Origin: Tubiluchus corallicola
Taxonomy: Eukaryota; Animalia; Priapulida
Direction of reading: 5' to 3'
Length of the DNA stretch: 64,000 nucleotides
Assembly: GCA_030141605.1 (NCBI GenBank)
Contig: JAQGDQ010000312.1
Coordinates: 15,335 to 79,334 of the forward strand
In this document: piece after piece, positions 15,710 to 44,289 of the stretch
Position numbering within the stretch: position 1 is the first letter of the stretch
How the letters are laid out: every line of letters starts with the position of its first letter
The notes under the pieces: model-generated
The model's input: only the letters and a program-made list of their open reading frames with translations
Database searches by the model: none
What the model was told of the DNA's origin: nothing
Program-made: the position numbers and the translations under genes

Positions 15710-16315
15710 TCACACAACATCTTTCACTGCCGGAGGCCTGTGAATGTTTCGTTTAACACAATTCATCATCCAACTTATCCCTTCGTTAACACCATCACCT
15801 ATTAGTGCCGAAACAGGCATCACTAAGCAATCTCTGTGTCCGATCACCTCGGGACTGCTGTTAAACGCCGATTTTATTTCACTTATAGTCATACAATTGT
15901 CTAAATCTTGTTTATTTGCCAACACAAGAAGCGGAACTCCGCTTAGAGCTTCGTTCCCAATCATCTGATGGAATGCGTTTTTGGATTCATCAATTCTCTC
16001 CCTGTCCGTCGCATCAATCACGTATATTATCCCGTGAGACTCTGCGTAATATTTATCCCAGAGGACTTGCAACTCCTCCTGACCTCCGAGATCCCAGAAA
16101 TTCAGACGAACCGAACCGATATCAACTTTACCAATGTTCAGTCCAACCGTGCTGGTAATCTTATTCATATTTGTGCCTTTGTAGTTCTTGTTAAATTTCG
16201 TTTTGGTCTGTTCCAGGAATGTAGTCTTTCCGGCATTGTCCAGGCCGAGTATGAGGACGCAATACTCGTCCTTCTGAACTGCCCACTTATAGAAGCCAGA
16301 AAGCAGAGTGTACAT
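15710..16315 (-). CDS. ARFRP1: ADP-ribosylation factor-related protein 1; intronless CDS, 201 aa
   Basis: MYTLLSGFYKW N-terminus (Tyr2, no myristoylation Gly), GLDNAGKT P-loop, ITSTVGLNIG, WDLGGQEELQ, NKQD, SAL, C-terminal RNIHRPP. Candidate 5'UTR acceptor at 16410. Confidence 0.96.
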   Translation of the reverse strand: MYTLLSGFYKWAVQKDEYCVLILGLDNAGKTTFLEQTKTKFNKNYKGTNMNKITSTVGLNIGKVDIGSVRLNFWDLGGQEELQVLWDKYYAESHGIIYVIDATDRERIDESKNAFHQMIGNEALSGVPLLVLANKQDLDNCMTISEIKSAFNSSPEVIGHRDCLVMPVSALIGDGVNEGISWMMNCVKRNIHRPPAVKDVV

Positions 16316-16527
16316 TGTGCAAAGTTTTGCTGCTCTTGTTTTATAGTTTAGAAGCTTATGACAGTGGGTGCATTTACAATTCGTCAGACACTTATTTGGA
16401 TTCCATTATCTAAAACACAAATACGGAAAAATATTTAAACATTTTCAAGTATCGTATTTGGAATAAATTAAAAAAACAACCATATAAGAAGTAAACAAAA
16501 AAGAAGCAAATCTGAACTTTACAGTAC

Positions 16528-20309: not shown

Positions 20310-23300
20310 CTCTTCCAATAAGTTCTCTTCCTGGGTTGCCCAGGGTCACATTTATTTCAAATTAAGGTCTGGAAAAGCCAGTCTCTTGCGTTCTCCAATA
20401 TATCTTCTAAACCCTCCCTGTCCTTCTCGAAATCTACACGGAAAAGGCAGTCTCTTGCGCTCTCCAATATATCTTCTAAATCTTCCCTTTTCTTCTCGAA
20501 ATATACACCACAATCACCAGTAATAAACACGTTATATGCCCATCTCATTTCATCATTGTTCCTTTTCAGTCTAAATCGGCCGAATAATCGACAATCGATT
20601 ATCTACACAATCGTCGAATCTGTATACGGTTCCCAGTCCCATCTTCGTCCTGGTCTGACAATGGCAGCTACTCTGGTCTTCAACTGGTTAAAGACATAGG
20701 GCTGAGGTAGCTGCCCAGAGTCCTCTTCATTTGTAGCATCTGCACAATCGTCGAATCGGTATACGATGTCCCGGTCCCGTCTTCGTCCTAGTCTGACAAT
20801 GGCAGCTACTCTGGTCTTCAGTTGGTTGAAGACATGTGGCTGAGATGGCTACCCAGAGTCCTCTTCATTCGTAGCATCTACATAATCGTCGAATCTGCAT
20901 GCGATGTCCCGGTCCCTTCTTCGTCCTGGTCTGACAATGGCAGCTACTCTGGTCTTCAACTGATTAAAGACATAGGGCTGAGCTGGCTGTCCAGAGTCCT
21001 CTTCATTCGTAGCATCTACACAATCGTCGAATCTGTATACGATGTCCCAGTCCCTTTTTTGTCCTAGTCGGACAATGGCAGCTACTCTGATCTTCAGTTG
21101 GTTGAAGACATGTGGCTGAGATGGCTGCCCAGAGTCCTCTTCGTTCATAGCATCTACACAATCGTCGTATTTGTGTCCTGGTCCCGTCTTCGTCCTGGTC
21201 TGACAATGACAGCTACTCGGATCTTCAACTGGCTGAAGACATGGGGCTGAGCTGGCTGCACATCATCTTCATTCATAGCATGTTCAACTCTGTCGCTTGA
21301 TTTTTACACGATGTCTGCCCATCGTTTGACATCATCATTCCTTCCAAGTCTGCATCTGAAAATATCAGCTACCCTCGTCTTCATCCGTTTGAAGATGTGC
21401 GGTTGATCAGGCACATCATCATCACTTTCATTCTCATCATTGCTTTCATTTCCAAGTTTTTTTTTTAAATTTGCTGAGGAGTCGAAAGTCTTGTGGGTGA
21501 GTGTGAGAGATCAGTTTCTGTTATTTTAAGGCACATCTGTCAGTTCTAACTCCAAATTTTTTGCATGCTTGATGGTAATATCGTTTGACTTTTGACACAT
21601 TTTCATATCTTAATCATTTCCTTCTGATCTTTGATTACTGATATTGTCTATATGAATCACTGACTATATCGCTGTTGCGTTACACGTACTTCTAACTGCA
21701 TGTGGTGATAGAATTTGAACTTGCTGCATGTAAATTTGTATGTTATACCATTAAAAAAATTGAAAATTAAAGTAAAGAAATAAATTATAATACTCTTCCA
21801 ATAAGTTCTCTTCCTGGGTTGCTCAGGATCACATTTATTTTAAATTAAGGTCTGGAAAAGCCAGTCTCTTGCGCTTTCCAGTACATCTTCCAGTTCTTCC
21901 CTTTCCTTCTCGAAATCTACACCACAATCACCAGTAATAAACACAATATCTGTCCATCTCGTTTTATCATTGTTCCTTTTCAGTCTAAATCGGCTGAATA
22001 ATCCACAATCGATTCTTCGTCTCTTTAGTCGTGTGAAGACATGTGGCTGAGCTGGCTGCCCAGAGTCCTCTTCATTTGTAGCATCTGCACAATCGTCGAA
22101 TCGGTATACGATGTCCCGGTCCCGTCTTCGTCCTGGTCTGACAATGGCAGCTACTCTGGTCTTCAGTTGGTTGAAGACATAGGGCTGAGCTGGCTGTCCA
22201 GAGTCCTCTTCATTCGTAGCATCTACACAATCGTCGAATCTGTATACGATGTCCCAGTCCCTTTTTTGTCCTAGTCTGACAATGGCAGCTACTCTGGTCT
22301 TCAGTTGGTTGAAGACATAGGGCTGAGCTGGCTGTCCAGAGTCCTCTTCATTCGTAGCATCTACACAATCGTTGAATCTGTATACGATGTCCCAGTCCCT
22401 TTTTTGTCCTAGTCGGACAATGGCAGCTACTCTGATCTTCAGTTGGTTGAAGACATGTGGCTGAGCTGGCTGCCCAGAGTCCTCTTCGTTCATAGCATCT
22501 ACACAATCGTCGTATTTGTGTCCTGGTCCCGTCTTCGTCCTGGTCTGACAATGACAGCTACTCGGATCTTCAACTGGCTGAAGACATGGAGCTGAGCTGG
22601 CTGCACATCATCTTCATTCATAGCATGTTCAACTCTGTCGCTTGATTTGTACACGATGTCTGCCCATCGTTTGACATCATCATTCCTTCCAAGTCTGCAT
22701 CTGAAAATATCAGCTACCCTCGTCTTCATCCGTTTGAAGATGTGCGGTTGATCAGGCACATCATCATCACTTTCATTCTCATCATTGCTTTCATTTCTAA
22801 GTTTTTTTTTAAATTTGCTGAGGAGTCGAAAGTCTTGTGGGTGAGTGTGAGAGATCAGTTTCTGTTATTTTAAGGTGCATCTGTCAGTTCTAACTCCAAA
22901 TTTTTTGCATGCTTGATGGTAATATCGTTTGACTTTTGACACATTTTCATATCTTAATCATTTCCTTCTGATCTTTGATTACTGATATTGTCTATATGAA
23001 TCACTGACTATATTGCTGTTGCGTTACACGTACTTCTAACTGCATGTGGTGATAGAATTTGAACTTGCTGCATCTAAATTTGTATGTTATACCATTAAAA
23101 AAATTGAAAATTAAAGTAAAGAAATAAATTATAATACTCTTCCAATAAGTTCTCTTCCTGGGTTGCTCAGGATCACATTTATTTTAAATTAAGGTCTGGA
23201 AAAGCCAGTCTCTTGCGCTTTCCAGTACATCTTCCAGTTCTTCCCTTTCCTTCTCGAAATCTACACCACAATCACCAGTAATAAACACAATATCTGTCCA

Positions 23301-26300
23301 TCTCGTTTTATCATTGTTCCTTTTCAGTCTAAATCGGCTGAATAATCCACAATCGATTCTTCGTCTCTTTAGTCGTGTGAAGACATGTGGCTGAAATGGC
23401 TTCACAGGTTCAAGTTCATTCTTAGCATCTACACAGTCGTCGAATCGGTATACGATGTCCCGGTCCCTTCTTCGTCCTAGTCTGACAATGGCAGCTACTC
23501 TGGTCTTCAGTTGGTTGAAGACATGGGGCTGAGCTGGCTGCACAGAGTCTTCTTCATTCATAGCATCTACACAATCATCGTATTTGTATACTGTTCCCAG
23601 TCCCGTCTTCGTCCTGGTCTGACAATGGCAGCTACTCTGGTCTTCAGTTGGTTGAAGACATGTGGCTGAGCTGGCTGCCCTGAGCCCTCTTCATTCGTAG
23701 CATCTGCACAATCGTCGAATCGGTATACGATGTCCCGGTCCCGTCTTCGTCCTAGTCTGACAATGGCAGCTACTCTGGTCTTCAGTTGGTTGAAGACATG
23801 TGGCTGAGCTGGCTGCCCAGAGTCCTCTTCATTTGTAGCATCTGCACAATCGTCGAATCGGTATACGATGTCCCGGTCCCGTCTTCGTCCTGGTCTGACA
23901 ATGGCAGCTACTCTGGTCTTCAGTTGGTTGAAGACATAGGGCTGAGCTGGCTGTCCAGAGTCCTCTTCATTCGTAGCATCTACACAATCGTCGAATCTGT
24001 ATACGATGTCCCAGTCCCTTTTTTGTCCTAGTCGGACAATGGCAGCTACTCTGATCTTCAGTTGGTTGAAGACATGTGGCTGAGATGGCTGCCCAGAGTC
24101 CTCTTCATTCGTAGCATCTACATAATCGTTGAATCTGTATATGGTGTTCTGGTCCCCTTTTCGTCCTTGTCTGACAATGCCAGCTACTCTGGTCTTCAGT
24201 TGGTTGAAGACATGTGGCTGAGCTGGCTGCCCTGAGCCCTCTTCATTCGTAGCATCTGCACAATCGTCGTATGTGTCCTGGTCCCGTCTTCGTCCTGGTC
24301 TGACTATGACAGCTACTCGGATCTTCAACTGGCTGAAGACATGGAGCTGAGCTGGCTGCACATCATCTTCATTCATAGCATGTTCAACTCTGTCGCTTGA
24401 TTTGTACACGATGTCTGCCCATCGTTTGACATCATCATTCCTTCCAAGTCTGCATCTGAAAATATCAGCTACCCTCGTCTTCATCCGTTTGAAGATATGC
24501 GGTTGATCAGGCACATCATCATCACTTTCATTCTCATCATTGCTTTCATTTCTAAGTTTTTTTTTAAATTTGCTGAGGAGTCGAAAGTCTTGTGGGTGAG
24601 TGTGAGAGATCAGTTTCTGTTATTTTAAGGCGCATCTGTCAGTTCTAACTCCAAATTTTTTGCATGCTTGATGGTAATATCGTTTGACTTTTGACACATT
24701 TTCATATCTTAATCATTTCCTTCTGATCTTTGATTACTGATATTGTCTATATGAATCACTGACTATATCGCTGTTGCATTACACGTACTTCTAACTGCAT
24801 GTGGTGATAGAATTTGAACTTGCTGCATGTAAATTTGTATGTTATACCATTAAAAAAATTGAAAATTAAAGTAAAGAAATAAATTATAATACTCTTCCAA
24901 TAAGTTATCTTCCTGGGTTGCTCAGGATCACATTTATTTTAAATTAAGGTCTGGAAAAGCCAGTCTCTTGCGCTTTCCAGTACATCTTCCAGTTCTTCCC
25001 TTTCCTTCTCGAAATCTACACCACAATCACCAGTAATAAACACAATATCTGTCCATCTCGTTTTATCATTGTTCCTTTTCAGTCTAAATCGGCTGAATAA
25101 TCCACAATCGATTCTTCGTCTCTTTAGTCGTGTGAAGACATGTGGCTGAAATGGCTTCACAGGTTCAAGTTCATTCTTAGCATCTACACAGTCGTCGAAT
25201 CTGCATACAATGTCCCGGTCCCTTCTTTGTCTTGGTCTGACAATAGCAGCTACTCTGGTCTTCAACTGGTTGAAGACATGGGGCTGAGCTGGCTGCACAG
25301 AGTCTCCTTCATTCATAACATCTACGCAATCATTGTATTTGTATACAGTTCCCAGTCCCATCTTCGTCCTGGTCTGACAATGGCAGCTACTCTGGTCTTC
25401 AACTAGTTGAAGACATGAGGCTGAGCTGGCTGTCCAGAGTCCTCTTCATTCGTAGCATCTATACAATCGTTGAATTCGTATACGATGTCCCAGTCCCTTT
25501 TTTGTCCTAGTCGGACAATGGCAGCTACTCTGGTCTTCAGTTAGTTGAAGACATGTGGCTGAGATGGCTGCCCAGAATCCTCTTCATTCGTAGCATCTAC
25601 ATAATCGTTGAATCTGTATATGGTGTTCTGGTCCCTTTTTCGTCCTTGTCTGACAATGCCAGCTACTCTGGTCTTCAGTTGGTTGAAGACATGTGGCTGA
25701 GCTGGCTGCCCTGAGCCCTCTTCATTCGTAGCATCTGCACAATCGTCGAATTGGTATACGATGTCCCGGTCCCTTCTTCGTCCTAGTTTGACAATGGCAG
25801 CTACTCTGGTCTTCAGTTGGTTGAAGACATGTGGTTGAGCTGGCTGACCAGAGTCCTCTTCATTCGTAGCATCTACATAATCGTTGAATCTGTAAACGAT
25901 GTTGCAGTTTCTTCTTCGTCCTGGTCTGACAATGGCAGCTACTCTGGTCTTCAACTGGTTAAAGACATAGGGCTGAGCTGGCTGCACAGAGTCTTCTTCA
26001 TTCATAGCATCTACACAATCATCGTATTTGTATACGATGTCCCGGTCCCTTCTTCGTCCTAGTCTGACAATGGCAGCTACTCTGGTCTTTAGCTGGTTGA
26101 AGGCATGTGGCTGAGCTGCCTGTACATCATCTTCAACACTGTCGTTGGATTTGTACATGACGTCTGCCCATCTTTTGACATCATCATTCCTTCCCTGTCT
26201 GCATCTGAAAATACTAGCTACCCTCGTGTTCATCCATTTGAAGATGTGAATCGGATTCCTTCTCAGTCAAGGCCTGACATGGTCAGTAACTCTTTTCCTC

Positions 26301-26605: not shown

Positions 26606-27590
26606 CCTTACCTTACCTTAGACCTTAGTCCTTCCTGTGCACGGATGCACATTGGGCAGACAGCATTTTCCACTGGGTTCTATCGGTGGCTTCTTTCTCG
26701 GTGCTCTCCCAACATCTGTTCATAGTCCAAAGCTCTTCTTTGAAAGATCTGCACCATGTTATTTTTGGCTGACCTCTTTTCCTTTTTCCACCTGGTGGTT
26801 CCCAGCGTAACGCTATTTTCGAGTGGCATTGTTCTGGTAGGCAGAGAATATGTCCAGCCAGTCTGAGTCTTCTCTCTGCGACTATTTCCTGCAACTGCGC
26901 CTGCTGTAGGTCTTCCACATGGGTAACATGGTCGCGATAGAACATTTTTAGGATTTTCCAAAGACATTTTTGGTGGAAGACATCCAGTTTCTTAGATATC
27001 GCTGCTGTGACTTTCCAGGTTTCGCTGGCATGAAGAGCCTGTAGCAGCACAATGGTGTTGTACAAACGAAGCTCGATTTTCAGGTAAATTTTCTTGCTTG
27101 CCCAGATTTTTCCAATATTCCTAAATACTGCTGCTGCTTTGCCAATTCTCACCCTGTCGCACCTCCATCACAACTCATCACATCACCAAGATATGAAAAG
27201 CTGGCAATGTTCTCGACCAGTTGACCTCCCACTGTTATTTGAGCATCATTTTGCTGGTTTGTCCACACTGTGAAAACTTTGGTCTTTTCAAAACTTATTC
27301 TCAGTCCAATTTTCCCACTACTTCTGCCAGACTTGTGGTCAATTGTTGCAAGCCTTCTTTTGATGTTTCCAGAAGTGCTATATCACCAGCAAAGTTCAGG
27401 TCTGCCAATTGTTATTGTTGCTGTTGTTGCTGCAGCTGAATTCCCAGGTCTTTTCCATCAACTGCTTTGTTCATGATGAAATCAATAGAAACAGGAATGG
27501 TGACATAATGCAGCCCTGCCTTAATCACCAGTTTCAATGGTGAAATATTCTGTGTTACCGTCTTGCATTTTTATGCAACTACTCTTTTAA
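26606..27590 (-). mobile_element. RTE-clade LINE, 5'-truncated 3' fragment of the reverse transcriptase ORF
   Basis: RIGKAAAVFRNIGKIW...LYNTIVL...SETW...RRLRLAGHILCLP...ALRWEPPGGKRKRGQPKITW...ATDRTQWK, followed by a (TAAGG)n tail. Degenerate LRQGCIMSP and FSYLG motifs lie upstream. Confidence 0.9.
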
Positions 27591-28030: not shown

Positions 28031-28778
28031 TTTCATGCACTCCTTTTTTGCTTTTTTCTCTAATTTACCATTAACCTGGGCAGCACCAAAACACGAGATT
28101 TTTTTCTGGAGCTGCCAGTAGCCTATGTGTTAATGTTAAGTCTGTGTAAAAATTCACGTTAATGCTTTCTGTATAAACTGTTAATGTAACATTGTGACAC
28201 ATGTTAAAAATAGAAATTTTTACTGCAGAGTTTTCACTTTCAGTCTTTTGACTGTTAAATATACCGCTGGTAAACACAGAAACAAAAGTCATGACAGTAA
28301 CCTAACGATTAAACTCAGAAAACACATTAAATTATTTAGACTTGTGTTTATTTATTTAAAATTAATTTGATACATTCAAAAGTACAAAGCATTGTATAAA
28401 AATTAAAAAACACTCAGCTATACTATAAAGTAACTAATAAATTATATAGAAACTAATAAAATGTTTATGTATATACATATGCACTCAGACACAAAACATA
28501 AAAACACAAGACAGATCACTAGAAATACAATATACAGAAGCATAAAACGCAATAAAGGTCACTATTAAAGTGGTAAAACATGTTGATTTCATAATGCAAA
28601 ACGTAGTTTTCACCAGTTCATCCATATAACTGTATTATGATATGCAGAGTAAACATACAATTTATCAATTATATTATTACAGAGTTCTGCCAGCCCATGT
28701 ATATATGATCCTGTTATATTTTCTAAGTTTAGGACAGAATATAAACGTATGCAGAGCATTAAACGTAGCAATAGCTAA

Positions 28779-29414
28779 AAAAGAGTACATGGGCTATACC
28801 TCTATACAAAAGAGTACATAGGCTATACCTCCATACAAAAGAGTACATAGGCTATACCTCCATACAAAAGAGTACATAGACTATACCTCTATACAAAAGA
28901 GTACATAGACTATACCTCTATACAAAAGAGTACATAGACTATACCTCTATACAAAAGAGTACATGGGCTATACCTCCATACAAAAGAGTACATGGGCTAT
29001 ACCTCTATACAAAAGAGTACATAGGCTATACCTCCATACAAAAGAGTACATAGACTATACCTCTATACAAAAGAGTACATAGACTATACCTCTATACAAA
29101 AGAGTACATAGACTATACCTCTATACAAAAGAGTACATAGGCTATACCTCCATACAAAAGAGTACATGGGCTATACCTCTATACAAAAGAGTACATAGGC
29201 TATACCTCCATACAAAAGAGTACATAGACTATACCTCTATACAAAAGAGTACATAGACTATACCTCTATACAAAAGAGTACATAGACTATACCTCTATAC
29301 AAAAGAGTACATAGGCCATACCTCTATACAAAAGAGTACATAGGCTATACCTCCATACAAAAGAGTACATGGGCTATACCTCTATACCAAAGAGTACATA
29401 GGCCATACCTCTAC
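28779..29414. repeat. 29-bp minisatellite, ~21 copies
   Basis: Unit aaaagagtacataggctatacctc(c/t)atac. Confidence 0.96.
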
Positions 29415-30201
29415 ATCATACGTAAAATTGCAAAAACACTGCTCAGGATAGTAAGAAGAGTAAAACACAAAGATTACATTACTTTGGCTTGTTGTTTCAG
29501 TTTAATGTCATTATTTTTACATTGATTTAAGACTCGGCATAATCAACACGTGATAGAGTTTATTAAAATTAGCAATAGCACGTACATTGCAAAGTCACGC
29601 ATGATAGAAAGAATTAAGATGAAATACAAGCACATTTATTTCCGAATTTACTTTTTCACTTTTTCTTAATAGTAAGCTATTGCAGACACATGGAATTAGT
29701 CAATTATTCCCTTGTTACGCGCATAAGGAATCCTGCCTAAAGTCCTAAACAGGTTGTGATTGTGAAGCATAATTATTGCAATTATTCCATCCCGGGTCGT
29801 GGTGATGTGCCGTCAAGTATCCTGTTTATGTCCAAATGCTATATGAGCAGAAACGGTTTCCCGTCTTGTGATCCATTTTTTCAGACCAACCAAAAAGTAA
29901 TCAAAATTAGAATAACTTAAATTTCAGCAGGCAAATTAGACAACCAAACATATTAAACGTAATTCTGTTAGACCTCGCAAATTAGTTTTGTTAGGATTTT
30001 CGTTTTCTATGTCCGGATTATCATGATTTTAATTTCTTATTCTCATAAGCATCATTATGATGTCTCTGGAATTATTTATAAATACGTAATAATTCTAATA
30101 ATATTTTGTATGCAGTGTAGTAGTTACTAATAGTGACCCTGAAACCAGTCATGTAAGTTTTGGGTTTTTTTATAACTGCTTAGGTTGAATGGTTGATTGC
30201 A

Positions 30202-33200: not shown

Positions 33201-36200
33201 TGCAGCTATCGCTGTCTGCCACTGTCGTTGTTGTTATCATAAAGCGTACATTAGTTTCGAATAAAACGTTAAAATGTCACCAACATTTCTAAAATCGAGA
33301 TTGTTTTTAAACGAACTTACTTACTACGCCGTCATTGTTCAGAAAACCTTCAAAATTAGTTTGTGACTGTTTCGCATCACCTTTTTCACAGGAGAAGCCA
33401 AACGAGAGAAAGAGTTTTACAGGAAACGGGGACTGCCGTACGTGCGATCACCGCCACCGATGTGCGGTCGGGAAGCACCTATAGATGATGATGCAGAACA
33501 ACATAAAGATCATCATCGTTCTGATGAACAGGTTAGTTGGTGTAACATCCTGTGACTCTGTAATAAAACACGTTTGAAAATTATTTTTTTGCTTTTATAG
33601 ATAAGTGCCAGGATTATTATTTCCATTTACAGAGCGAACATTGTATAGGACATTATAAAAAAAACAGTCTTTCAACAAACAACATTAACAAAATAGTAGT
33701 TTACCAAGGCGAGGTCTTCTCCAGTACTTGGGTAGGACCGGGCCTTCCTCACGCACGTTAGTAATGCAGCAGAATTCGGTCTCCAGTGGAGGCTAAGTTA
33801 GCGTCTCTCTCAGTCTAATTCGTAGGCAGCAGGTAGCCTTTTTCAGGAAGTCTCCACAGCTTTCCATCAAACTGGCAGGACATAGAATAGGGTCTCCTGA
33901 GATCGGGTAATAAGAAGATCATCTCCTCCGAGTTCCCACGCAGAACGGGAGTGATTTAGACCATCAAACGTGAAGTCGCAGGTGACAGTATTTTCATCCA
34001 ACGTAAAGGTATTTAGGCTGTGTAATGAATGCCTAATTTAGCAAATGTCACTCAGTAATTGTGTAACTGACGAGGTTTCACCAGCAAAAGAAGAACATTG
34101 TTCACCAACGAATAAGAAGAACATAGTAATGAACAAACCATCCATTTCTTGTTCAGTCATCGTATGAAAGAAACCATGATATAGATATATCTGACCATTT
34201 TTCAACACGGTCACTCTACACTCTGCCACGTAGGCCAATACGCCTAATATCCAGGCCTCGAAAGCTAGCCGACCAATCAGAAATGAGTTCTGGGTGAAGT
34301 GACCTCAATAGTACAGTGACAAAGTGTACTACATTTAAACTCCAGAACATCAAATATGTTTAATATGCAGCAATTGTTGTTTTATCTGTAATAATAAATT
34401 ACAGCAATAAGTTTTCAATGAAAAACATAAGTTTGATTTAGGTACATTACTAAATTAGGTAACTTGATTTTCGTCTATAATTATACAAAAAAATAACAGC
34501 GAAATTGTTCTAATAGCATAAAGCAGTTCAATAAACATAATTAGACAATTACATGTGGTCTCCCTGAGTTTTGGCACTTATAACTTGCAAAAAAAACAAT
34601 AGAAATCAACTTCAACATTCACATCGTATCAATTGAATTGCATGTCTACTTGGCCAACTACCTGGTCACATGACTGATGACAGTTAAAGGGGCAAGACCA
34701 AATTTAACAGGTAGGGAAACGTGTATGTGCATAACACCGCCCCCATACATGTCTCCACCAGCATTTATCACCTCACTAAAAAAACAATCACACGTTCATC
34801 ATTTGACCTTCAATGAAACAGAACTTGTGTATAGGGCGTTTAAGAAACCCTTCTTTGGTTTTCAAGGTGACACTCCTCACCAGACCATCCTTACTGACGT
34901 GGGTTTTCACAACACGTCCAAGCAGCCAATAATTTCTTGGAGTTGTATCCATAATTAGAACGATGTCGTCCTCCTTGAGATTCTGTTTTTCTTTGTGCCA
35001 TTTCGAACGTTGCGGAGCATTGGCAAATACTCTAATTTCCAGCGATTCCAAAATACATTAGAAAGATATTGAATCTGTCGCCACTTTTTCTATAAACATC
35101 TCCCTCAGAAAACTGACCCAGTGGAAGTATTGGAGGAGCATTTCTGCCCATCAGAAGGAAGTGGTTAGGTGTTAAAGAATCATAATCCTTCGGATCATCA
35201 GATGCTGTGGTCAGAGGCGTAGTGTTGACGATGTTCTCGACAATACAGAATAAGGTGCTCAAACCCTCATCATCAAGTACCTGCTCTTGAGCCACTGAGT
35301 GCAGAACTTTTTTAATGCTTTTAATTAGCACTTCCCAAGCTCCTCCCATATGAGATGCCCGAGGAGGACAAAAGTCCCAATCAATATGTTTCTGAAGTAA
35401 GTTTTCCGTGACAACATTGGTGTTCCAAGATTCTACAGACTTTTGGAGCTCTTTGTCTGCTCCCAGAAAATTACTTCCACAATCAGACATTAGTTTGTCA
35501 GGTTTACCTCTTGTGGAGCAAAACCTATCTAGTGCTTTTATGAACGAATCAGTTGTCATCGTGAACAAAACTTCAAGATGGATGCTTCTGCTGGCCATAC
35601 ATGTAAAAAGGATGCTGTAACGTTTTGCTTCTGAGCGACCCTGTTTTACCATAATTGGATCAAAGCAATCAGTATCCACAGTAGCAAACACTCCAGAGCT
35701 TTGCAATCTGTCTATAGGCAAGTCAGCCACTTTTTGGTGCAGTGGCATTGCCCTATTCAATCTACATTGTCTGCACTCAGCTAAAAGCTTGCGTACCATA
35801 CCATGCATTCCAACAATCCAAAACTTCTGGGGGATCAAAGACATTACATGCTGTTTGCCGACATGTACATGCGTAGTGTGGAAATCTTGAGTGACAATTT
35901 ATGTCCCTTTGGTAGAACAATTGGATGCCTAGCATTATAGTTGACATCAGCATGCCTTATTCGGCCACCTACATGAATAAGTTGCTTTTCACATAAGAAT
36001 GGATCTAGTTTCACCAAACAACTGACTTAATAACATTCTGACTAGTACTTAAGTTTTTATATTCTTTCGGCAAACTCTCTTTCTGCACATACTTGATTAT
36101 TTCTTCTTCTGCATAGTCGAGTTCTGCAACAGTCAGTTTATTTGGAAAACTCAAAGTCTTTTTGGCAACTTTGTTCTTTAATACTGTTTTGAACCGAAGA

Positions 36201-39200
36201 AACCATGCAACACTTTTCTTCAACTTGTAGAATGAAGAATAACGATCCATCAAATCATTTATGATAATACGCTGTCGCTGTGTGTCATCCATTGTCGTCG
36301 CTGTTACGGTATTAACAACTGGAGAGTGCTTCACTTCTTTGTCACCTTGTAATAAATCATTCTTTGTATTGTCATGTCAATTCGAGGCCAATCATCTTCT
36401 GGTAGCATCAGGAATCTAAGTCCGAATTTCCAGCGTTTCGACTCTGACAGTGTATAACCATTTAATCCTCGAGATAGGTCGTCAGCTGCATTTTCCTCAG
36501 AAGGGACATATCTCCACTGCTCTGGTGATGAGACCTCTAGAATGCTTGTGACCCTGTTCTGCACGAAGGTATGAAAGCGCTTGACAATATTTCGTATGTA
36601 GTGCAGGATAACAAGACTATCCGTCCAAAATATTGACCTGTCAATGTGGATGGTAAGCTCTTTCCGTAGCACCTTTTCAAGTTTAGCTGCAAGAGCTGCT
36701 GCACATAACGCAAGATGAGGAATAGTCAGTCCTTTCATTGGAGTTAGCCTTGATTTCGCAATGACAAAGACAGTGTGGATAACGTTGAGCTCATTCTGCT
36801 GACGAATGAATACTACCACACCATAAGCACTTTCAGAAGCATCACAAAAATAATGAAGCTCTGTGGATATTACCTTACCAAACTCACAAGGCATGAATGA
36901 TCTCTCAATCTTGAAATCTGTTAGCAGGGTGCTTTCTTCTTTCCATTGTTTCCATTTCTTCCCAATGGCACCGTTCAACTTGCTGTCCCACGTTTTGTCT
37001 GGTAAACGACATTCTTCTTGAAAAAGTTTCTTTCTTTGTAGAACAAATGGGCCACACATTCCAAGGGGATCATAGATACTGGAAAGCGAACTAAGCAATC
37101 CACGCTTTGTATTGGGATGCTCCTTTTGTTTTACATGGACTCCTAGCGTATCAGCCTTCATCTGCCAACTTATCCCCAAGGCACGCTCATTCGGCAGTGT
37201 GTCATGTGACAAGTTTAGATCTTTAACACCTTTTCCCCTATCTTCAATTGGGATAGTGTCGAGAACACGTTTATCATTTGACATCCATTTCGTAAAGCAA
37301 AATCCAACCTTCTGCAAAAGCAGCTTTAGCTGAGTAATTAGCTTCAATGCTTGCTGCACATTCTCGACTGGCTTTAGGCAGTCATCCACATAAAAATTGT
37401 AAAGCACAGTTGCTACCATTTCTTTATCAAAGCTATTGGTAGTCCAATGCAGTGCGTTTCAAGGCAAATGAAGCTCCACTGGGGGACCAAACCCCTCCAA
37501 AAAAATGCACGGTCATTCTAAGTATCTGAAGAGGCTGGTCAATTCGTCATTCAGGCCACCAAATGAACCTCAGCATGTCTCTATGCTTGGGCGAAACAAA
37601 CACTTGGTGATACATCTCACTTATATCTGTTAACACGGCAACTGGATACTGCCTAAATCGTAAGAGGACACCAACCAAATTATTCGTAAGGTCTGGACCT
37701 TGCAAAGCCAATTTGTTCAATGAGATATCTTCACACTCTGCACCACAATCAAAAACAATACGCGTTTTATCTGGTTTATTTTCGTTAAAGACTGGGAAGT
37801 GAGGAAGATACCAAGTCAGATGTGTAGGAGTACTTGCTGATTGTTCTTCCACTAGCTCTGCATGACCCTTGTTTAGCAAATAGTTGATTCCGTCAGTGTA
37901 CTTTTGATGAAGAATGGGATTCTTGGTGAATTTTCTTCTGAGCCCATTGAGCCATTTTGCTGCCCTCTGAAAGCTGTCAGGAATTACATGACGTTTGCCT
38001 TTAAATGGTATTTCTAACTCATAGTGGCCGTCTCTTCTGGTTATTGAGCTTTCCCAAATATCGATGACCACCATCTCTTCTCTAGAATACTATTCTCCAG
38101 AATCCAAAACAGAATCTATTTTCCAAAATCTCTCGACTTGCTGCTGCAAGACATCTGTTTTGGCTTCAGAAGACTCTTTGACCAGAACATAATTATTTAC
38201 TGACACGTTGTGTACTTTGCCGCCCGCTATAGGCCCATTCAACGTCCATCCCAGCTTCGTCTTAACAGCATAAGGAGCGTTTACGGGACCATGTCTAACT
38301 TGCAGAGGGGCCAAAGCATCAGGTACGTCAAGACCGATTAGTAAGCTTAGGTCTTCATCGTCTCCATGATACTCAACTAAAGATGGCGCTATCTCTTTCA
38401 AGTGCGGCCATTTTTGAACATCTGCGAGTGATGCCAAGCATTCTGTATCTAGCATCAGTGACTGTCGAACAAAAACATGAGGCAACAAGATTCTGTTTTC
38501 ACCAATGTTGTCCGTGACAACGAAACTTGTAACTAAAGTGTCTGCTTTACTTTGGCATTTCTCGATTGTGGTTAGGGTAAGAACATCCTCTTTTCCTTCA
38601 GCACCTATGCTGTCAAACAGCTTCCTGGAACAAAATGTGTTTGTAGATCCAGGATCTAACAGAGCCATGGCTTCAACTGGCTTTCTTCCATGTACATGTA
38701 CTTGAACTTTGACCATAGGAAATGCTATCTTCGTTTCTTTACGACTGCCCTTATTTGCACAGCTTGTAGCTTCAGTCTCGTCTTTTCTTTGCTGCTCATC
38801 CCTGGCAAGCCTATTAACAACTGAAGAAGAACTGCCCAGCCTCCCCACTGCATCATGCAATAAAGCTGAATGCTTCTTGTTGCATTCATTACCACTACCT
38901 GACGGTTTGAGACATCTAGATGCTGTATGTTTTCCTTTCGCCAAACAATTAAAACAGAGGCATTCTTTACGCACGAACATCAACTTATCTGGGGTGTCCA
39001 TAGCTGCAAAAGCTTCACACTGTCCAAGAGAAGAATGCTTATTTGAGTTGCAAAATATGAAAACTTTCTTGCAAAATTGGGCGCTTTTGGTTTGAGGCTT
39101 TTCTTGATTTGTTTTCGCCTTGCCATTGTTTGCTTGAACTTGAGGTGCTTTAGCAGAGGTGGCATAATTTTTGGCAGAGATGCTTCGTTTAGGTCTTTCC

Positions 39201-42200
39201 CAATCGCCGAGGCTACAATACACAGGGTGGTTCATTTTTTCAGCATTTTCCTGAATGAATGTTAGCAAATCATAAATACATGGGTTTCTAATTTCATGTT
39301 TTGCTATCCTGGACACCACGTCCTTCATTTATGGCAGTTTTTTAACAATCTGAACGAGACTTGTCTGTGTATTAATTTCGCTGAGATTTTTCATTGCTTT
39401 CAATGTCTCGACACAGCTTAAAAGCAAGTCTGCAAATTCTCGCAGCTTCTCTTTGGCATTGGCCTTGATTTGGTCAAAATCGATTATTTTTGATATCCAA
39501 GCCATAAACGAAGAGCCGAACCTGTCGATGAGTAACTACTTTGCATGCTTGTATGCTCGACTGGGGTCCATGTAGCTTCCAGTGCAAAATTGCATTAATC
39601 TCTGAAACCTCGCAGCCTCATCTTGTGTGTAGCTCTCGACATTGGCTTCAAAACGTCGCATGAATTGCCAAAAGTTTAGAACGTTACCATCAAATTTGTC
39701 CAACTCCGCTATTGGAAGTTGCATTGCTTTGTACATGTTGGTATGTTGACGTTGTGCTTCAAGCATGATGTTCATGATCATAGCCATGTCATTGTTCTGT
39801 GGATGGCATTGATTAGGCATGTCGTTTAAATTATCAGTACAAATGGTAGGTTGAGTAGAATTAAAAGCATACCTATTCTCACGCGGTATATTACTGCCAT
39901 GTGCTAGTGGAATAAAAGCAGACGCTGATGCATTCAGACACTGATTTCCAGAGCTTGGATACTGCATAGGCAAACGAATATTTTTGTCTTCCAGCAGTTG
40001 CCTAACGTCAGTATCAAAGATCTATATCCACTTGTTCATTATGTCGAATTCATAACCTTTCTTGCCAAAAGGTGGCGCCACATGAGCTGTGTGCGAATCG
40101 TGTTCAATATAGTGCCATGGTTTATGTCGACCTAAAAAACGAGCAATTTTTACATTTTTCCCAAATTGCATTAAAGCTGGTAAATATCTGTACCGACCCA
40201 GAATGACAGCATTATAAGTGAATGGCAAATGTTTTTCATAACTAGTTGACCAGTCTTTAAAAAACTGATTCAATAATCCTTGGTCCCCACCATCAAAAGT
40301 ACAGGATTCTGATTTAGCATACAACATTACCTTATTATACATATCAATACTTGGCTTGTAAACAAACACCCCAGAGTTAAAGCAATCTGGCCAGCCTACA
40401 CCAGGGGCAACTCAAAGCTCTTTAAATCTAAACATTTCATCAACATTACAATTGTATCAGAATCTACAAAAACACATTTGCTAAATTGTGTTAACCTCCA
40501 ACAATGTCGCTTAGTAAAACTCACATTAAGTTCTGGTCTTCCTAACAATTGTAACCTTTTAAACTCATGACTATCAATAATACTGACATGTTCAACCAAA
40601 TTAAATGCATTTCTCAAAAGTGTCATAATATCACAAGAAATACCCTCTCTTACCATGATGACTAAGCATTTCATTGTTCCTGTGCGATGCAAACTAGAAG
40701 CAAGAACAAGTGCACCCAAAGCATACTTATCAGTAGTTGCTAGAGTAACAAAGGCTTCAGACAAATAATTCTCATCGCTTTCGCATGTAGGTTGTGTATG
40801 TTTAACTGTCGGATCCATGTATGTTGACCTTGACCTTAGCCATGCTTTGACCTTTGAGTCTGATGTTCCATGGTCCACTAACCTGGTCTCAACATCAGCT
40901 GCAGAACCAAAGCTGTCTTCATCACGTTCATCTTCAGAACTACACTCATTCTGCATGAGTTCATGTCTACCTGGTCACATGACTGATGATTGACTAAGTC
41001 TGGTTAATTTGACTGACTTGAGTGTGGCTAATATTTTCGACTGCCAATCTTTTTTAATGTTTTCAACTGAGTGAGTCTGGCTGTTATTTTTGACTAACTA
41101 TGATCTGTATTGTTTTTCTCCAGGTAAACATCTGCTTGGAATGTATGAGGGACACAAAGATAAAGGTGCTGAAGAAACGATTCATTAGGTGCTCGTCTCA
41201 GGCGACTGTCACGCATTTAAAAAAGTTCATCGCGAAAAAGTTGTACAATAATCTTGATCGATACCAGGAGGTACGTGACTAACCAGCTACGTTTCTGTTT
41301 CGCTACTTTTTAATCCGTTGAGTTTGGAAGTAAGATGCTTTGCAGTGAATGTACAGAATAAGTGAGAATTAGCCTGGGTTCTGTGAGAAACGAGACGAGA
41401 AATTATGCTTCTCACGAGAATCAAGTTGAGGGGAGAATGTGATTTTGATCTTAACGAAGTAATTAAATTTCAAATAAAGTTTAGTTTTTTATTTGTGTAA
41501 ACAAAGTCGTCACAACGTTTGTACTCCGAATGACAGGGAATATTTATCAGTATCACAAATGGCAACAAAATTAGTATTTAACTAGCAAAGGCCCCGCAAA
41601 AGATTTTGCGTATAAATACACGTGTAATAAATAATACGCAAACATCCTACATAGTCCTCATTTATAACGCAAAGCCAGCAGCAGCAGCTTTTACTGAATT
41701 AAAGGTATAAGGCTATAGACAAAGTACAATGGATGACGTCACAACAATGGCTTTGCGTCAGCAGTTTTCTAAGCGAAAATTGCCAAAAATAGAACATCTA
41801 TTTAACTCGTCGGTACTCCTCTTGGTGGACGGGAAAACGGCCGTTACGGGATGCCGTGGCCCTCTCGCGAATTCTAAATATGCCTACTACACCCTATCTA
41901 TCCATAGCCAGCACCGCCTGTGGCCCGTTCCCGTTCTTCAGATCTCAGGCGTATAACTTTTGCAAAAAAACGGCCGAAAAATGGCCATTTTTGGAGGTTT
42001 TTCGCCTCACGTTCCTCCCGGTGGGCCCGATTCGAAAAATAAACCCCCAATGGCATGACACTAGATCGATGTATAGATTGCCGCAAATGGTGCCGTCGTC
42101 GAAGCTGTAGCCTCGAATTTTATATATATATAACATACCAAGAGAATTAATATAAGAGATCCGATGGCTTGATGGTTAGCATAACTCAATTGAGTAAGAA

Positions 42201-44289
42201 AAGAGAAACTTTACGAAACAAGAACTTTCGCTGCTGCGACTATTTCTCGCTTCCCTACCAAGCATTTTTTCTACACATGAGACGAGATCAGAAAAAAATC
42301 ATTCCTCGCACGACGTGAAATGAAATGAAATCTATTTATTAAATGGAAATTCTTGCAACAGTAATTTGTTACTGGTAAGGCATTGATTTTGTTAGGTTGC
42401 TTGTCGACACTACCTAGGTTTTAACAAAGTAATGTAAACCATAGATCTAAACTGCAAACCACAGTTGCACTTTACTGTAATGTAAAGTCTGCTTTCAAAA
42501 GAATTTGCTAATTAATACTGTTGCTTCTCTAGGTTGATCTACTGTGCAATGAGGAGTTGTTAGGCAAGGATCACACACTTAAATTTTTGTTCGTTACTAG
42601 ATGGCGCTTAAAGGTGAGAATCTTTTATTTTGTTGTTTGATTCTAACAGTTTCTGTGCAGTTACGATTCTATACTCATTGCAATGACTCGTCGCACACGT
42701 GTGAGCAGTGACTCATTGCACACGTGTGAGCAGTGACTCATTGCGCACGTGTGAGCAGTGACTCAGTGCGCACGTGTGAGCAGTGACTCATTGCGCACGT
42801 GTGAGCAGTGACTCAGTGCGCACGTGTGAGCAGTGACTCAGTGCGCACGTGTGAGCAGTGACTCAGTGTGCACATGTCAGCCTTGACTCAATGCGCACGT
42901 GTGAGCAGTGACTCATTGCGCACGTGTGAGCAGTGACTCAGTGCGCACGTGTGAGCAGTGACTCATTGCGCACGTGTGAGCAGTGACTCATTGCGCACGT
43001 GTGAGCAGTGACTCAGTGCGTACGTGTGAGCAGTGACTCAGTGCGCACATGTGAGCAGTGACTCAGTGTGCACGTGTCAGCCTTGACTCAATGCGCATGT
43101 GTGAGCAGTGACTCATTGCGCACGTGTGAGCAGTGACTCAGTGCGCACGTGTGAGCAGTGACTCATTGCGCACGTGTGAGCAGTGACTCATTGCGCACGT
43201 GTGAGCAGTGACTCATTGCGCACGTGTGAGCAGTGACTCAGTGCGCACGTGTGAGCAGTGACTCAGTGTGCACGTGTGAGCCGTGACTCATTGCACATGT
43301 GTGAGCAATGACTTATTGCTCAGGTATGACTCATTGCACACGTGTGAGCAGTGACTCATTGCACAGGTGTGAGCCGTGACTCACTGCGTAGTGTGAGCAA
43401 TGACTCATTGCTGTCATAAGTTGTGTTTATGTTCCTGAAAATGGTGGTTTTGATATTGATTAACATTGTCTTTGGGCACATCCATTATATGGCTTTTACT
43501 ATAATACCGATAATCACGTGTGGCAATCATCGAACATTGAAGTCTGAGCATTTGAATTCAATTCAATTAAAATTATTAGCACTTCCCTTAATAATATACC
43601 ACTGCAATTACATACAATCGTTGTCATCAAAGCCTTTGAAACGCCGTGCAATCAGTACACTTTAACTGTGATTTCTGTGCACAATTTTTAAACAAATTTT
43701 TTTATTGAAGGACAAAATCAAGCAATATGCATGATCTTTGTGAGATCTCTTTTATCTATGATTCGAAAATTTATTCATCCATCTTATTTTTTTATTTACC
43801 ATTTATTTGTTTATCATTTAAACATTTGAAACGCTTTGCATTCAGCACGATTTGTGTGCACAGCTTTTAAACAAATTTTTTATTGAACAACAAAATCAAG
43901 CAATGTGCATCATCTTTGTTGTGAGACTATTTTTTATTAGTGATTCGAAAACTTATTCAGAAATCTTTAAAACTGATTTCGAATTCGATTTGAAATTCAA
44001 AATCTCGAAATTCGGTTTGATTTCAGTTCGAAAGTCAAAAATTCGATTTGACTGGAATTTTGTTTCTAGTAGAGAATGCTCACCCCTAAGAATCATGTGT
44101 TCTCTTAGCCATTGTTTCTCTTACCCATTGTTTTTCTTAGCCATTGTGTCTCTTAGCCATTGTTTTTCTTAGCCATTGTTTCTCTTAGCCATTGTTTTTC
44201 TTAGCCATTGTTTTAAATAATAATGATGGTTTGATCCATTCCAGGATCCCCCGCTCATTCTTAAATATAGACCCAAAGTAAAAATATGA
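30202..44289 (+). CDS. PCGF3: Polycomb group RING finger protein 3 (PCGF3/5 family), complete, 7 coding exons
   Basis: Exons 30202-30313 ([37 protein letters not shown]), 30957-31053 ([32 protein letters not shown]), 32597-32652 ([14 protein letters not shown]), 33392-33531 (DHHRSDEQ), 41124-41270 ([28 protein letters not shown]), 42533-42613 ([27 protein letters not shown]), 44245-44289 ([14 protein letters not shown]). All GT-AG with compatible phases. Confidence 0.95.
31444..32079. mobile_element. Tc1/mariner (pogo/Tigger-like) MITE
   Basis: TIR cagtgttccctcact...agtgagggaacactg flanked by TA on both sides. Confidence 0.9.
32716..33052 (+). repeat. 103-bp tandem triplication ending in a 5S-like internal promoter segment
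   Basis: Three units. The last continues gttaagcaacaccgagactggttactgaaatggatgggtggctacttgg, which resembles 5S box A/IE/box C. Confidence 0.8.
33081..33202. repeat. (ATT)n/(GTT)n trinucleotide microsatellite
   Basis: Direct observation; explains the poly-Leu and poly-Ile ORFs. Confidence 0.95.
34788..39328 (-). pseudogene. BEL/Pao gag C-terminus and pol (protease, RT, RNase H, integrase), fragmented
   Basis: ORFs 38090-39328, 37547-38074, 36331-37419, 36011-36334, 35032-35844 and 34788-35051 are colinear pieces of one polyprotein. Confidence 0.95.
39992..40761 (-). pseudogene. GYG1: Glycogenin catalytic (GT8) domain, intronless, embedded in frame within BEL/Pao Gag
   Basis: [121 protein letters not shown]. 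One frameshift (~40448) and two stops (~40412, 40022). Confidence 0.93.
41579..42132. mobile_element. Probable non-autonomous Helentron/HINE-like insertion
   Basis: CpG-rich island starting taactag with a short hairpin (cgcaaaagattttgcg) and ending in a (TA)n run. Family assignment is pattern-based only. Confidence 0.4.
42695..43412. repeat. 25-bp CpG-rich minisatellite, ~28 copies, in PCGF3 intron 6
   Basis: Unit gcgcacgtgtgagcagtgactca(t/g)t. Confidence 0.96.
44101..44212. repeat. 17-18 bp tandem repeat just upstream of the last PCGF3 exon
   Basis: About 6 copies of tcttagccattgttt(c/t)t. Confidence 0.85.

What the first reader, a model, noticed from the sequence alone, without database searches (positions are those of the whole stretch)
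34681..40966. BEL/Pao retrotransposon whose Gag polyprotein contains a captured glycogenin domain
Seen: on the minus strand a 65-aa acidic leader (…DSKVKAWL…) runs in frame into a nearly complete glycogenin catalytic domain (40761-39992). This continues in the same frame, across one TAG, into [10 protein letters not shown] and the Gag core ([19 protein letters not shown]), followed by zinc knuckles, protease, RT, RNase H and integrase. The glycogenin part has no introns, no own start, no C-terminal glycogen-synthase-binding tail, and no 3'UTR or poly(A). Established: glycogenin is the self-glucosylating GT8 primer of glycogen synthesis, and BEL/Pao elements encode a single gag-pol frame. Inference: in-frame joints at both ends and trimming to the domain boundary suggest that an active element family captured a host mRNA and kept it, rather than a chance retrocopy landing in a dead element. 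A Gag-glycogenin fusion could glucosylate the capsid, coat particles with glycogen, or target them to glycogen-rich oocytes. I do not know of a described case.
Basis: partly seen in the sequence, partly recalled or inferred. Interest (0 to 1): 0.92.

Follow-up and report, generated by a model that had tools for sequence, protein, structure and literature searches.

The report
Glycogenin enzyme domain inside retrotransposon Gag
A family of virus-like jumping genes in an animal genome carries the catalytic domain of glycogenin, the enzyme that starts glycogen, inserted inside its capsid (Gag) protein in several copies; the active-site residues are largely kept, so the domain likely still attaches glucose chains to the element's own particles, an apparently undescribed kind of retrotransposon cargo.

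Summary
The capture is real and belongs to the family; this copy is dead. A glycogenin GT8 domain (40761-39992, minus strand) lies inside the Gag region of a BEL/Pao element.

The window copy is more broken than reported: one frameshift and two stops in GT8, about five frameshifts overall, and no 5' LTR. Contigs from three samples carry the same fusion without these GT8 breaks. They lie at about 5 times flank depth, and one is a roughly 9%-diverged lineage. Both joints are bridged in an independent study, and no GT8-skipping joint was listed.

The 'leader' is truncated Gag, so GT8 is an internal insertion. Invariant glycogenin columns are kept (67 of 75) while variable ones drift (28 of 115). 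An open-frame-only null reached that level in 6 of 1000 runs.

No such fusion appeared in other organisms, in ten paper searches or in earlier scan notes. Template-switch capture and a self-glucosylating Gag are inferred; enzyme activity, expression and benefit are untested. Verdict: new variant of a known kind, interest 0.72.

The parts
40967..40989 (-). 23-bp remnant identical to 3' LTR positions 34658-34680; marks the loss of the 5' LTR, primer site, UTR and Gag start in this copy
   Evidence: exact repeat; family contigs of X1 and X4 leave the window at 40967; an X4 contig links the LTR end to this point across about 600 nt (record 29)
40762..40966 (-). truncated Gag N-terminal region (acidic stretch, VKAWL), in frame with the GT8 N-half
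   Evidence: ORF 40396-40974; covered by multi-copy contigs
40447..40761 (-). glycogenin GT8 domain, N-half (DxD motif at 40467-40453)
   Evidence: PF01501; PDB glycogenin-1 E 2e-26; motif places
39992..40446 (-). glycogenin GT8 domain, C-half (FDGGDQ 40297-40280; Tyr195-equivalent in 40195-40175); window-private frameshift near 40446 and stops at 40412-40414 and 40022-40024
   Evidence: PF01501; PDB E 7e-38; breaks not shared by the contigs of X1, X4, X5 that cover them
39719..39991 (-). Gag low-complexity linker with [10 protein letters not shown] (39937-39908), matching the LNPxAxxF-type motif of GT8-less BEL Gags
38850..39718 (-). Gag core and zinc-knuckle region, with stops and in-frame deletions
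   Evidence: 35-54% identity to BEL Gags P0227, P0240, P0255, P0258; four of the five relatives scanned hit DUF1759
36334..38849 (-). protease (LLDPGS 38662), RT (YVDD 37392), RNase H (FCDAS 36849); broken
   Evidence: Peptidase_A17 E 1e-42
34791..36333 (-). connection, integrase (zinc-binding and D-D-E motifs) and DUF5641; broken
   Evidence: Integrase_H2C2 and DUF5641
34737..34746 (-). polypurine-tract-like stretch before the 3' LTR
   Evidence: sequence
34325..34736 (-). 3' LTR, about 412 bp, TG...CA; high copy, likely many solo LTRs
   Evidence: sequence; X4 joint at 34321 and depth about 100-280 times the flank in X1

Best explanation
A BEL/Pao LTR retrotransposon family carries an intronless glycogenin catalytic domain inserted in frame inside the N-terminal region of Gag, likely captured from an mRNA by reverse-transcriptase template switching and likely kept by selection as an active enzyme that would glucosylate its own tyrosine on the Gag polyprotein. 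Shown: the fusion is in several copies and in two lineages about 9% apart; it lies between the Gag N-terminal region and the LNxxAxxF motif ahead of the capsid core; only the catalytic domain was taken; invariant glycogenin positions are kept while variable ones drift; the window copy is dead and decays neutrally. Inferred: every Gag made would carry the domain. Gag assembly would bring the domains together as dimers, which would add short malto-oligosaccharide chains from UDP-glucose. The particle surface would then be sugar-primed and could associate with glycogen-rich germ-cell cytoplasm or be masked from host recognition. Without the synthase-binding tail a full glycogen granule is not expected. 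My odds: family-level capture about 0.92; constraint on the enzyme domain after capture about 0.75; self-glucosylation of Gag as the selected role about 0.45.
For: Multi-copy fusion: X1 contig of 874 nt over 39924-40790 at depth 1053 against 197 for the unique flank; X2 about 59 against 11; X3 23 against 5 (X1-X3 are one sample). That contig differs from the window by 29 letters in 874, the flank contig by 2 in 688, so it is not this locus's allele. Independent study X4 bridges GT8 to the Gag core (record 28, 39585-40285) and the LTR end to leader to GT8 (record 29). X5, a third study, has GT8 at 50 differences in 584 nt and runs on into the linker in register (records 24 and 18; linker read by eye). 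The only joint listed skips 41 nt of linker, not GT8. Constraint: 67 of 75 invariant columns kept against 28 of 115 variable ones; uniform decay expects 35 (P 5e-15); the open-frame-only simulation gave mean 0.61 and reached 0.89 in 6 of 1000 runs. Window-private changes: 8 synonymous of 30, and 4 of 5 invariant columns hit are lost. Between-lineage changes listed: 5 synonymous of 6. GT8-less relatives P0255, P0256 and P0258 have an uninterrupted Gag N-terminus. Template-switch capture is described in PMC5131818; Tyr195 self-glucosylation, dimers and the synthase-binding residues 300-332 in PMC9188544.
Against: No intact single copy was seen. Logan contigs merge copies and drop rare variants, so the open frame is a majority form, and summed depth is not a copy number. 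Only 25 of the 29 X1 differences and 6 of the X5-type differences were listed, and only 2 of those 6 lie in GT8, so no real dN/dS was possible. An open frame is needed for Pol anyway. The donor gene is unknown and the tree does not place the domain (branch 1.65), so part of the constrained divergence could predate capture. In one search the runs reaching 0.85 or more (22 of 1000) came from donors that were already divergent. 8 of 75 invariant columns are changed outside the listed private sites. One diverged single-depth X1 contig (record 2) matches the Gag linker but not the GT8 C-half, and another (record 5) has two indels and leaves GT8 at 40634, so disrupted or GT8-less old copies may exist. 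The X5 contrast of GT8 against linker is not significant (P 0.09). Nothing here tests expression, activity or benefit.
Confidence: 0.55

Rival explanations
1. In-frame passenger. The family captured a glycogenin from an already divergent donor gene and tolerates it as a spacer in a flexible part of Gag; only the reading frame is under selection.
For: The frame must stay open for Pol. The donor is not identified and the tree is unresolved. Divergent donors can give retention up to 0.92-0.93 in the null. Only 2 between-lineage GT8 sites could be classified.
Against: The other glycogenin seen in the same samples differs at 14 of 18 third codon positions in the loose ends (table 7, read by eye, biased towards mismatch) and is under 80% identical outside about 40 nt, so it is not a recent donor. 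About 770 nt are kept without indels in two lineages. GT8 is no more diverged than the Gag linker between X5 and the window (8.6% against 13%).
Confidence: 0.2
2. Active accessory enzyme acting in trans. The element's protease releases the domain, or it stays on Gag, and it glucosylates or binds a host factor (silencing or glycogen machinery), for example by dimerising with host glycogenin.
For: The same constraint evidence. The domain is flanked by low-complexity linkers, it has a long branch, and the residues around the acceptor tyrosine are changed. A glycogenin homolog that glycosylates another protein is known (Gat1, 10.1101/764241, passages).
Against: The Tyr195-equivalent and the FDGGDQ motif are kept, as expected for self-glucosylation. 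No target is suggested by any result.
Confidence: 0.17
3. Host domestication. One locus supplies the host with a useful glycogenin and the other copies are by-products.
For: Captured host ORFs outlasting the surrounding element are known (crocodilian KIT-ligand, PMC4299795, passages).
Against: Pol regions are covered at the same or higher depth than GT8 (1300-1400 against 1053 in X1). There are many LTR copies. A separate glycogenin exists in the same samples. The synthase-binding tail is missing.
Confidence: 0.05
4. A one-off processed pseudogene landed in a dead element.
For: The window copy itself is dead and decays neutrally.
Against: No poly(A), UTR or own flanking duplication. The fusion is multi-copy, has at least three 5' contexts in X1 and is bridged in independent studies.
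Confidence: 0.03

Closest known systems
BEL/Pao LTR retrotransposons (Belpaoviridae; PMC3118150 passages, PMC9094657 passages)
   Same: LTR, Gag with DUF1759-type core and zinc knuckles, PR-RT-RH-IN order, Peptidase_A17, DUF5641; size within the 4.2-10 kb range given
   Different: The known extra cargo in the passages seen is env at the 3' end; here a host metabolic enzyme domain sits inside Gag
LTR-mediated retroposition (Tan et al. 2016, PMC5131818; abstract and Discussion read), including maize Bs1
   Same: Partial, intronless mRNA piece inside an LTR element, no poly(A), further rounds of copying
   Different: Those retrocopies are mostly young chimeras that act as non-autonomous elements. 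Here the element keeps gag and pol, and the piece is trimmed to one domain, in frame at both ends, old and constrained
Crocodilian ERV captures of KIT-ligand (CrocERV29) and nectin3 (CrocERV31) (PMC4299795, passages)
   Same: Host mRNA captured by an LTR lineage, multi-copy, purifying selection; KIT-ligand taken without loss of a viral domain
   Different: An additional ORF or an env replacement, encoding signalling or adhesion proteins, in retroviruses; not an enzyme domain within Gag
Accessory domains of retrotransposon polyproteins: chromodomain, DnaQ-like exonuclease, viral SF1 helicase (PMC6338049, part 1 of 4 read, whole text searched by word)
   Same: Non-essential domain translationally fused to an element polyprotein with its motifs conserved
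   Different: Those act on nucleic acid or chromatin; the words 'glyco' and 'transferase' do not occur in that paper
Glycogenin-1 (GYG1, GT8; PDB 3t7m, 1ll2, 7q0b)
   Same: Whole catalytic domain, about 50% identity, DxD, FDGGDQ and Tyr195-equivalent
   Different: No start codon, linker or synthase-binding tail; fused within Gag; branch about seven times the median length

Membership tests
BEL/Pao retrotransposon | Domain order Gag, protease, RT, RNase H, integrase | tested here: met
   motif places; Pfam
BEL/Pao retrotransposon | Pao-type profiles (Peptidase_A17, DUF5641; DUF1759 Gag) | tested here: met
   PF05380 E 1e-42 and PF18701 E 9e-20. The window Gag itself did not hit DUF1759; 4 of its 5 nearest Gag relatives did
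BEL/Pao retrotransposon | LTRs with TG...CA ends and a polypurine tract | tested here: met
   3' LTR 34325-34736. The 5' LTR is lost here but is linked to the leader in an X4 contig
BEL/Pao retrotransposon | Single open gag-pol frame | tested here: inconclusive
   One frame with stops from 40444 to about 37435; about five frameshifts in the window; no intact copy seen
BEL/Pao retrotransposon | Three Gag zinc knuckles | tested here: inconclusive
   One clear Cys-His knuckle at 38956; the flanking two look degenerate
BEL/Pao retrotransposon | Target-site duplication; placement in an RT tree with named superfamilies | not tested
   5' end lost; no named reference set was available in the script box
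Glycogenin (GT8) | GT8 domain closest to glycogenins | tested here: met
   best full-domain identity 54%, median 49% over 207 glycogenins
Glycogenin (GT8) | DxD motif, FDGGDQ and acceptor Tyr195 | tested here: met
Glycogenin (GT8) | Metal-binding His and the Asp of the APD motif (roles recalled) | tested here: inconclusive
   Changed in the window copy. Both codons hold window-private differences not shared by the X1, X4 and X5 contigs
Glycogenin (GT8) | C-terminal glycogen-synthase-binding tail | tested here: not met
   Alignment ends at the last helix of the catalytic domain; tail defined in PMC9188544
Glycogenin (GT8) | Self-glucosylation activity | not testable with these tools
   needs an enzyme assay
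L1-type processed pseudogene | poly(A), own flanking duplication, single locus | tested here: not met
LTR-mediated retrocopy (template switch) | Partial intronless mRNA piece inside the element, copied further | tested here: met
LTR-mediated retrocopy (template switch) | Microsimilarity at both joints | not testable with these tools
   Neither the donor gene nor a close GT8-less parent element is available as DNA

The most novel reading that the evidence does not exclude
An autonomous retrotransposon lineage has carried a working glycogenin inside Gag for a long time and builds self-glucosylated, glycogen-primed virus-like particles, using sugar chemistry to localise to germ-cell glycogen or to hide from host defence: a glycosyltransferase used as a retroelement accessory factor.
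Probability: 0.4. Interest if true: 0.9.

Novelty: new variant of a known kind. Interest (0 to 1): 0.72.

Why it matters
Host-gene capture by LTR elements usually gives short-lived, non-autonomous chimeras, and the retained accessory domains I found described act on nucleic acids, chromatin or cell entry. A metabolic glycosyltransferase kept under constraint inside Gag would add a new class of retroelement accessory function. It would suggest that cytoplasmic capsids can be self-glycosylated and would link transposon biology to glycogen stores in the germ line. It is also a natural experiment on what glycogenin does without its synthase-binding tail. The first test is cheap: a self-glucosylation assay on one domain.

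Tried and rejected
No whole genome is held for this window, so individual copies could not be listed.

Protein searches found no GT8-plus-Gag protein:
- 0 of the best 120 listed, of 603 hits of 546-1738 aa.
- 0 of 13 hits to leader plus N-half.
- 0 of 12 hits over 1738 aa.
- None of the best 150 listed, of 2302 representatives, matched both parts; 26 of them were scanned with Pfam. The top hit P0135 is a glycogenin with an internal duplication.

DNA collections:
- The window protein found nothing in metagenome contigs (152 pattern matches, 0 confirmed) or viral contigs.
- A glycogenin alignment gave 80 of 365 confirmed metagenome loci and 1 viral locus. 0 of these 81 lie next to BEL sequence, but most are 1-2 kb and likely transcripts, so this is a weak test.

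Expression: no RNA holder was listed, and run X6 laid nothing. Neither is evidence on expression.

Other checks:
- X4 depth over GT8 is inflated (up to 120,000, adapter ends present) and was not used for copy number.
- The tree did not place the domain. The motif LNV[TS]xTK is shared with 6 of 207 glycogenins, four of them named bivalve proteins and two unnamed, a weak hint only.
- ESM Atlas gave only sub-0.9 Gag-like leads.
- No tRNA or Rfam match.
- No structure was predicted, because both folds were already assigned by sequence.
- A recalled baculovirus GT8 gene (p13) was not confirmed and is not used.
- Repbase, Dfam and GyDB could not be searched, and paper supplements were not opened, so an unnoticed GT8 in a deposited BEL sequence is possible.
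Full report
OBSERVATION. The minus strand holds a BEL/Pao-type element from 40989 to about 34325. Two ORFs give the glycogenin match: 40396-40974 (PF01501 E 0.0014; PDB glycogenin-1 E 2e-26) and 40022-40411 (PF01501 E 1.5e-6; PDB E 7e-38). They are in different frames. The GT8 part therefore has three breaks in this copy: a frameshift near 40446 and stops at 40412-40414 and 40022-40024. From 40444 one frame, read with X at stops, runs through the GT8 C-half, [10 protein letters not shown], the Gag core, a zinc knuckle, protease and the start of RT. RT YVDD, RNase H, integrase and DUF5641 follow across four more frameshifts. A purine-rich tract and a 412-bp TG...CA repeat close the element. No 5' LTR is present; only 23 bp identical to the LTR remain at 40967-40989. 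There is no intron, poly(A) or synthase-binding tail.

IS THE FUSION SHARED? No genome is held, so I laid Logan contigs of five of the six listed runs over the whole element or the GT8 region, plus the RNA-guess run X6, which laid nothing. X1-X3 are one sample and may be the window's source; X4 and X5 are two other samples and studies. In X1 the unique flank contig has depth 197 and 2 differences in 688 nt. The Pol contigs have depth about 1300-1400, and one 874-nt contig over 39924-40790, which crosses the GT8-linker joint, has depth 1053 with 29 differences. X2 gives about 59 against 11 and X3 23 against 5. The tool warns that summed depth is no copy number, so I also used evidence that does not need depth. 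X1 shows three different 5' contexts for leader plus GT8: this locus, a contig that leaves at 40967, and an 87%-identical contig that leaves at 40950. X4 has a 700-nt contig from GT8 into the Gag core and a 1115-nt contig joining the LTR end, about 600 unknown bases, the leader and the GT8 N-half (records 28 and 29). X5 has GT8 at 50 differences in 584 nt and a contig that runs from the GT8 end into a diverged linker in register (records 24 and 18; linker read by eye). X5 shares listed variants with the diverged X1 contigs, so two lineages carry GT8.

The window's GT8 breaks are private. The X1 and X5 contigs differ from the window at the frameshift (it lacks 7 nt), and X1, X4 and X5 differ at both stops. 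Of the 29 X1 differences 25 were listed, and the 24 of these classified include both catalytic-site losses of the window copy. The only joint listed skips 41 nt of linker.

Against: contigs merge copies, so this is a majority form, not a proven intact copy. One single-depth X1 contig matches the linker but not the GT8 C-half, and another has two indels and leaves GT8 at 40634. Old disrupted or GT8-less copies may therefore exist.

WHERE IN GAG. The nearest Gag proteins (P0227 54%, P0258 44%, P0240 37%, P0255 35%, P0256 32%) have no GT8. The three with a complete N-terminus run from a serine-rich start through a coiled coil to LNPDAPEW, LNPFAHEF or LNPNALTF and on to the core. In the window GT8 precedes the matching [10 protein letters not shown]. 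The 30 loose letters beyond 40967, identical in X1 and X4, read in frame without a stop into the leader and resemble the end of that coiled coil (read by eye). The leader is thus truncated Gag and GT8 is an internal insertion. The joints could not be aligned to a parent, since the leader did not align reliably.

IS THE DOMAIN CONSTRAINED? I aligned the domain with 207 stored full-domain glycogenins (insect-rich), leaving out 20 columns with listed private changes. The window matches the modal residue at 67 of 75 columns conserved at 95% or more, 31 of 43 at 80-95%, 20 of 65 at 50-80% and 8 of 50 below 50%. Uniform decay scaled to the variable columns expects 35 of 75 (P 5e-15). A null that mutates natural glycogenin coding sequences with only stops forbidden (50 donors kept of 66 usable among 81 loci; 1000 runs) retained 0.61 of invariant columns on average. 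It reached 0.85 or more in 22 runs and 0.89 or more in 6, only from donors that began divergent. The 30 window-private changes typed are 8 synonymous to 22 not, as expected under neutrality (P 0.5), and 4 of the 5 in invariant columns destroy the residue. The six listed X5-type changes are 5 synonymous to 1 not (Fisher P 0.016), but only two lie in GT8 and most X5 differences were not listed. GT8 differs between X5 and the window by 8.6% and the Gag linker by 13% (P 0.09). DxD, FDGGDQ and the Tyr195-equivalent are present. The roles of residues other than Tyr195 (PMC9188544, passages) and Asp102 (PMC5203857, search listing) are recalled.

DONOR. In a 57-row tree the domain has a branch of 1.65 against a median of 0.23 and no supported placement. 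X1 and X4 hold a second glycogenin-type sequence that matches only 40469-40507. Its loose ends differ from the window at 14 of 18 third codon positions (table 7, by eye, biased towards mismatch). Its X1 depth works out near 480 by hand, which would fit a single-copy host gene. If it is the donor's descendant the capture is old. If the donor was another gene, part of the constrained divergence may predate capture. This is the main gap.

MECHANISM. Shown: an internal, domain-trimmed, multi-copy, constrained fusion. Inferred from PMC5131818 (abstract and Discussion read): capture by two template switches on a co-packaged mRNA. Inferred from glycogenin biology (PMC9188544 and 10.1101/764241, passages: a dimer that self-glucosylates a tyrosine to 8-12 sugars, with the synthase bound through residues 300-332): Gag assembly would concentrate and dimerise the domains, which would glucosylate themselves. 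That would give sugar-primed particles but not full glycogen granules. The benefit (germ-cell localisation or masking) is speculation. Rivals are an in-frame passenger (0.2), a trans-acting enzyme (0.17), domestication (0.05) and a one-off retrocopy (0.03).

COMPARISON AND NOVELTY. The element meets the BEL/Pao tests I could run; superfamily placement was not tested. Precedents for the kind are LTR-mediated retrocopies (PMC5131818), crocodilian ERV captures under purifying selection (PMC4299795, passages) and accessory polyprotein domains (PMC6338049, part 1 of 4 plus word search). BEL/Pao env captures are also described (PMC3118150, PMC9094657, PMC13524379, passages). Ten full-text searches (listings seen) returned no glycogenin or other glycosyltransferase inside a retrotransposon polyprotein. 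Subscription journals, Repbase, Dfam and supplements were not seen.

Protein and DNA searches found no such fusion outside these runs. Earlier scan notes contain no such case. They do record other BEL/Pao captures and glycogenin fused to a PKS or to RNase III, all unchecked here. The words 'Bcl-2' and 'ubiquitin' do not occur in the main text of PMC13524379, so I do not cite it for note e1-8073080's claim about such domains.

VERDICT. A real, family-level capture of a glycogenin domain into BEL/Pao Gag, probably under enzyme-level selection, seen here through a dead copy. New variant of a known kind; interest 0.72, and 0.9 if self-glucosylated particles are shown.

Noticed in passing
window 15710-16405 (-): Intact, intronless Arf-family GTPase ORF (Pfam Arf E 2e-47). 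It looks like ARFRP1 (name recalled), which usually has introns, so it may be a retrogene or come from an intron-poor lineage.
   Followed up: partly
runs X1 and X4, laid at window 40469-40507: A second glycogenin-type sequence, under 80% identical to the captured one outside about 40 nt. It reads on without the intron that several other animal glycogenins seem to have just after the DxD motif. Candidate host gene or another retrocopy.
   Followed up: partly
run X4, laid at window 40250-40530: Depth peaks above 100,000 on the most conserved part of GT8, with adapter ends. This looks like sequence enrichment; element-borne glycogenin copies could be mistaken for the host gene in such data.
   Followed up: no
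window 41580-42120: Very high-copy dispersed repeat about 600 bp upstream of the element (depth thousands of times the flank); no tRNA or Rfam match.
   Followed up: partly
window 40967-41100: The 5' break has a 23-bp LTR remnant preceded by several short AGTCA-type repeats, and X1 has an 11-nt insertion at 40985. This may be a repair scar with templated insertions.
   Followed up: no
window 39908-39937 (-): [10 protein letters not shown] and the LNPxAxxF motifs of related Gags resemble the PAM2 poly(A)-binding-protein motif (recalled, not tested).
   Followed up: no
window 21840-26266 (-): Several long ORFs made of tandem peptide repeats with no credible Pfam match.
   Followed up: partly
window 42555-43454 and 28631-29568: Minisatellite arrays with 25-bp and 29-bp units.
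   Followed up: no
window 26625-27167 (-): Fragment resembling the C-terminal part of a LINE reverse transcriptase (by eye; weak DUF6451 match).
   Followed up: no
window 34108-34735: The LTR region has about 100-280 times flank depth in X1 against about 7 times for the element body, suggesting many solo LTRs and a long-lived family.
   Followed up: partly
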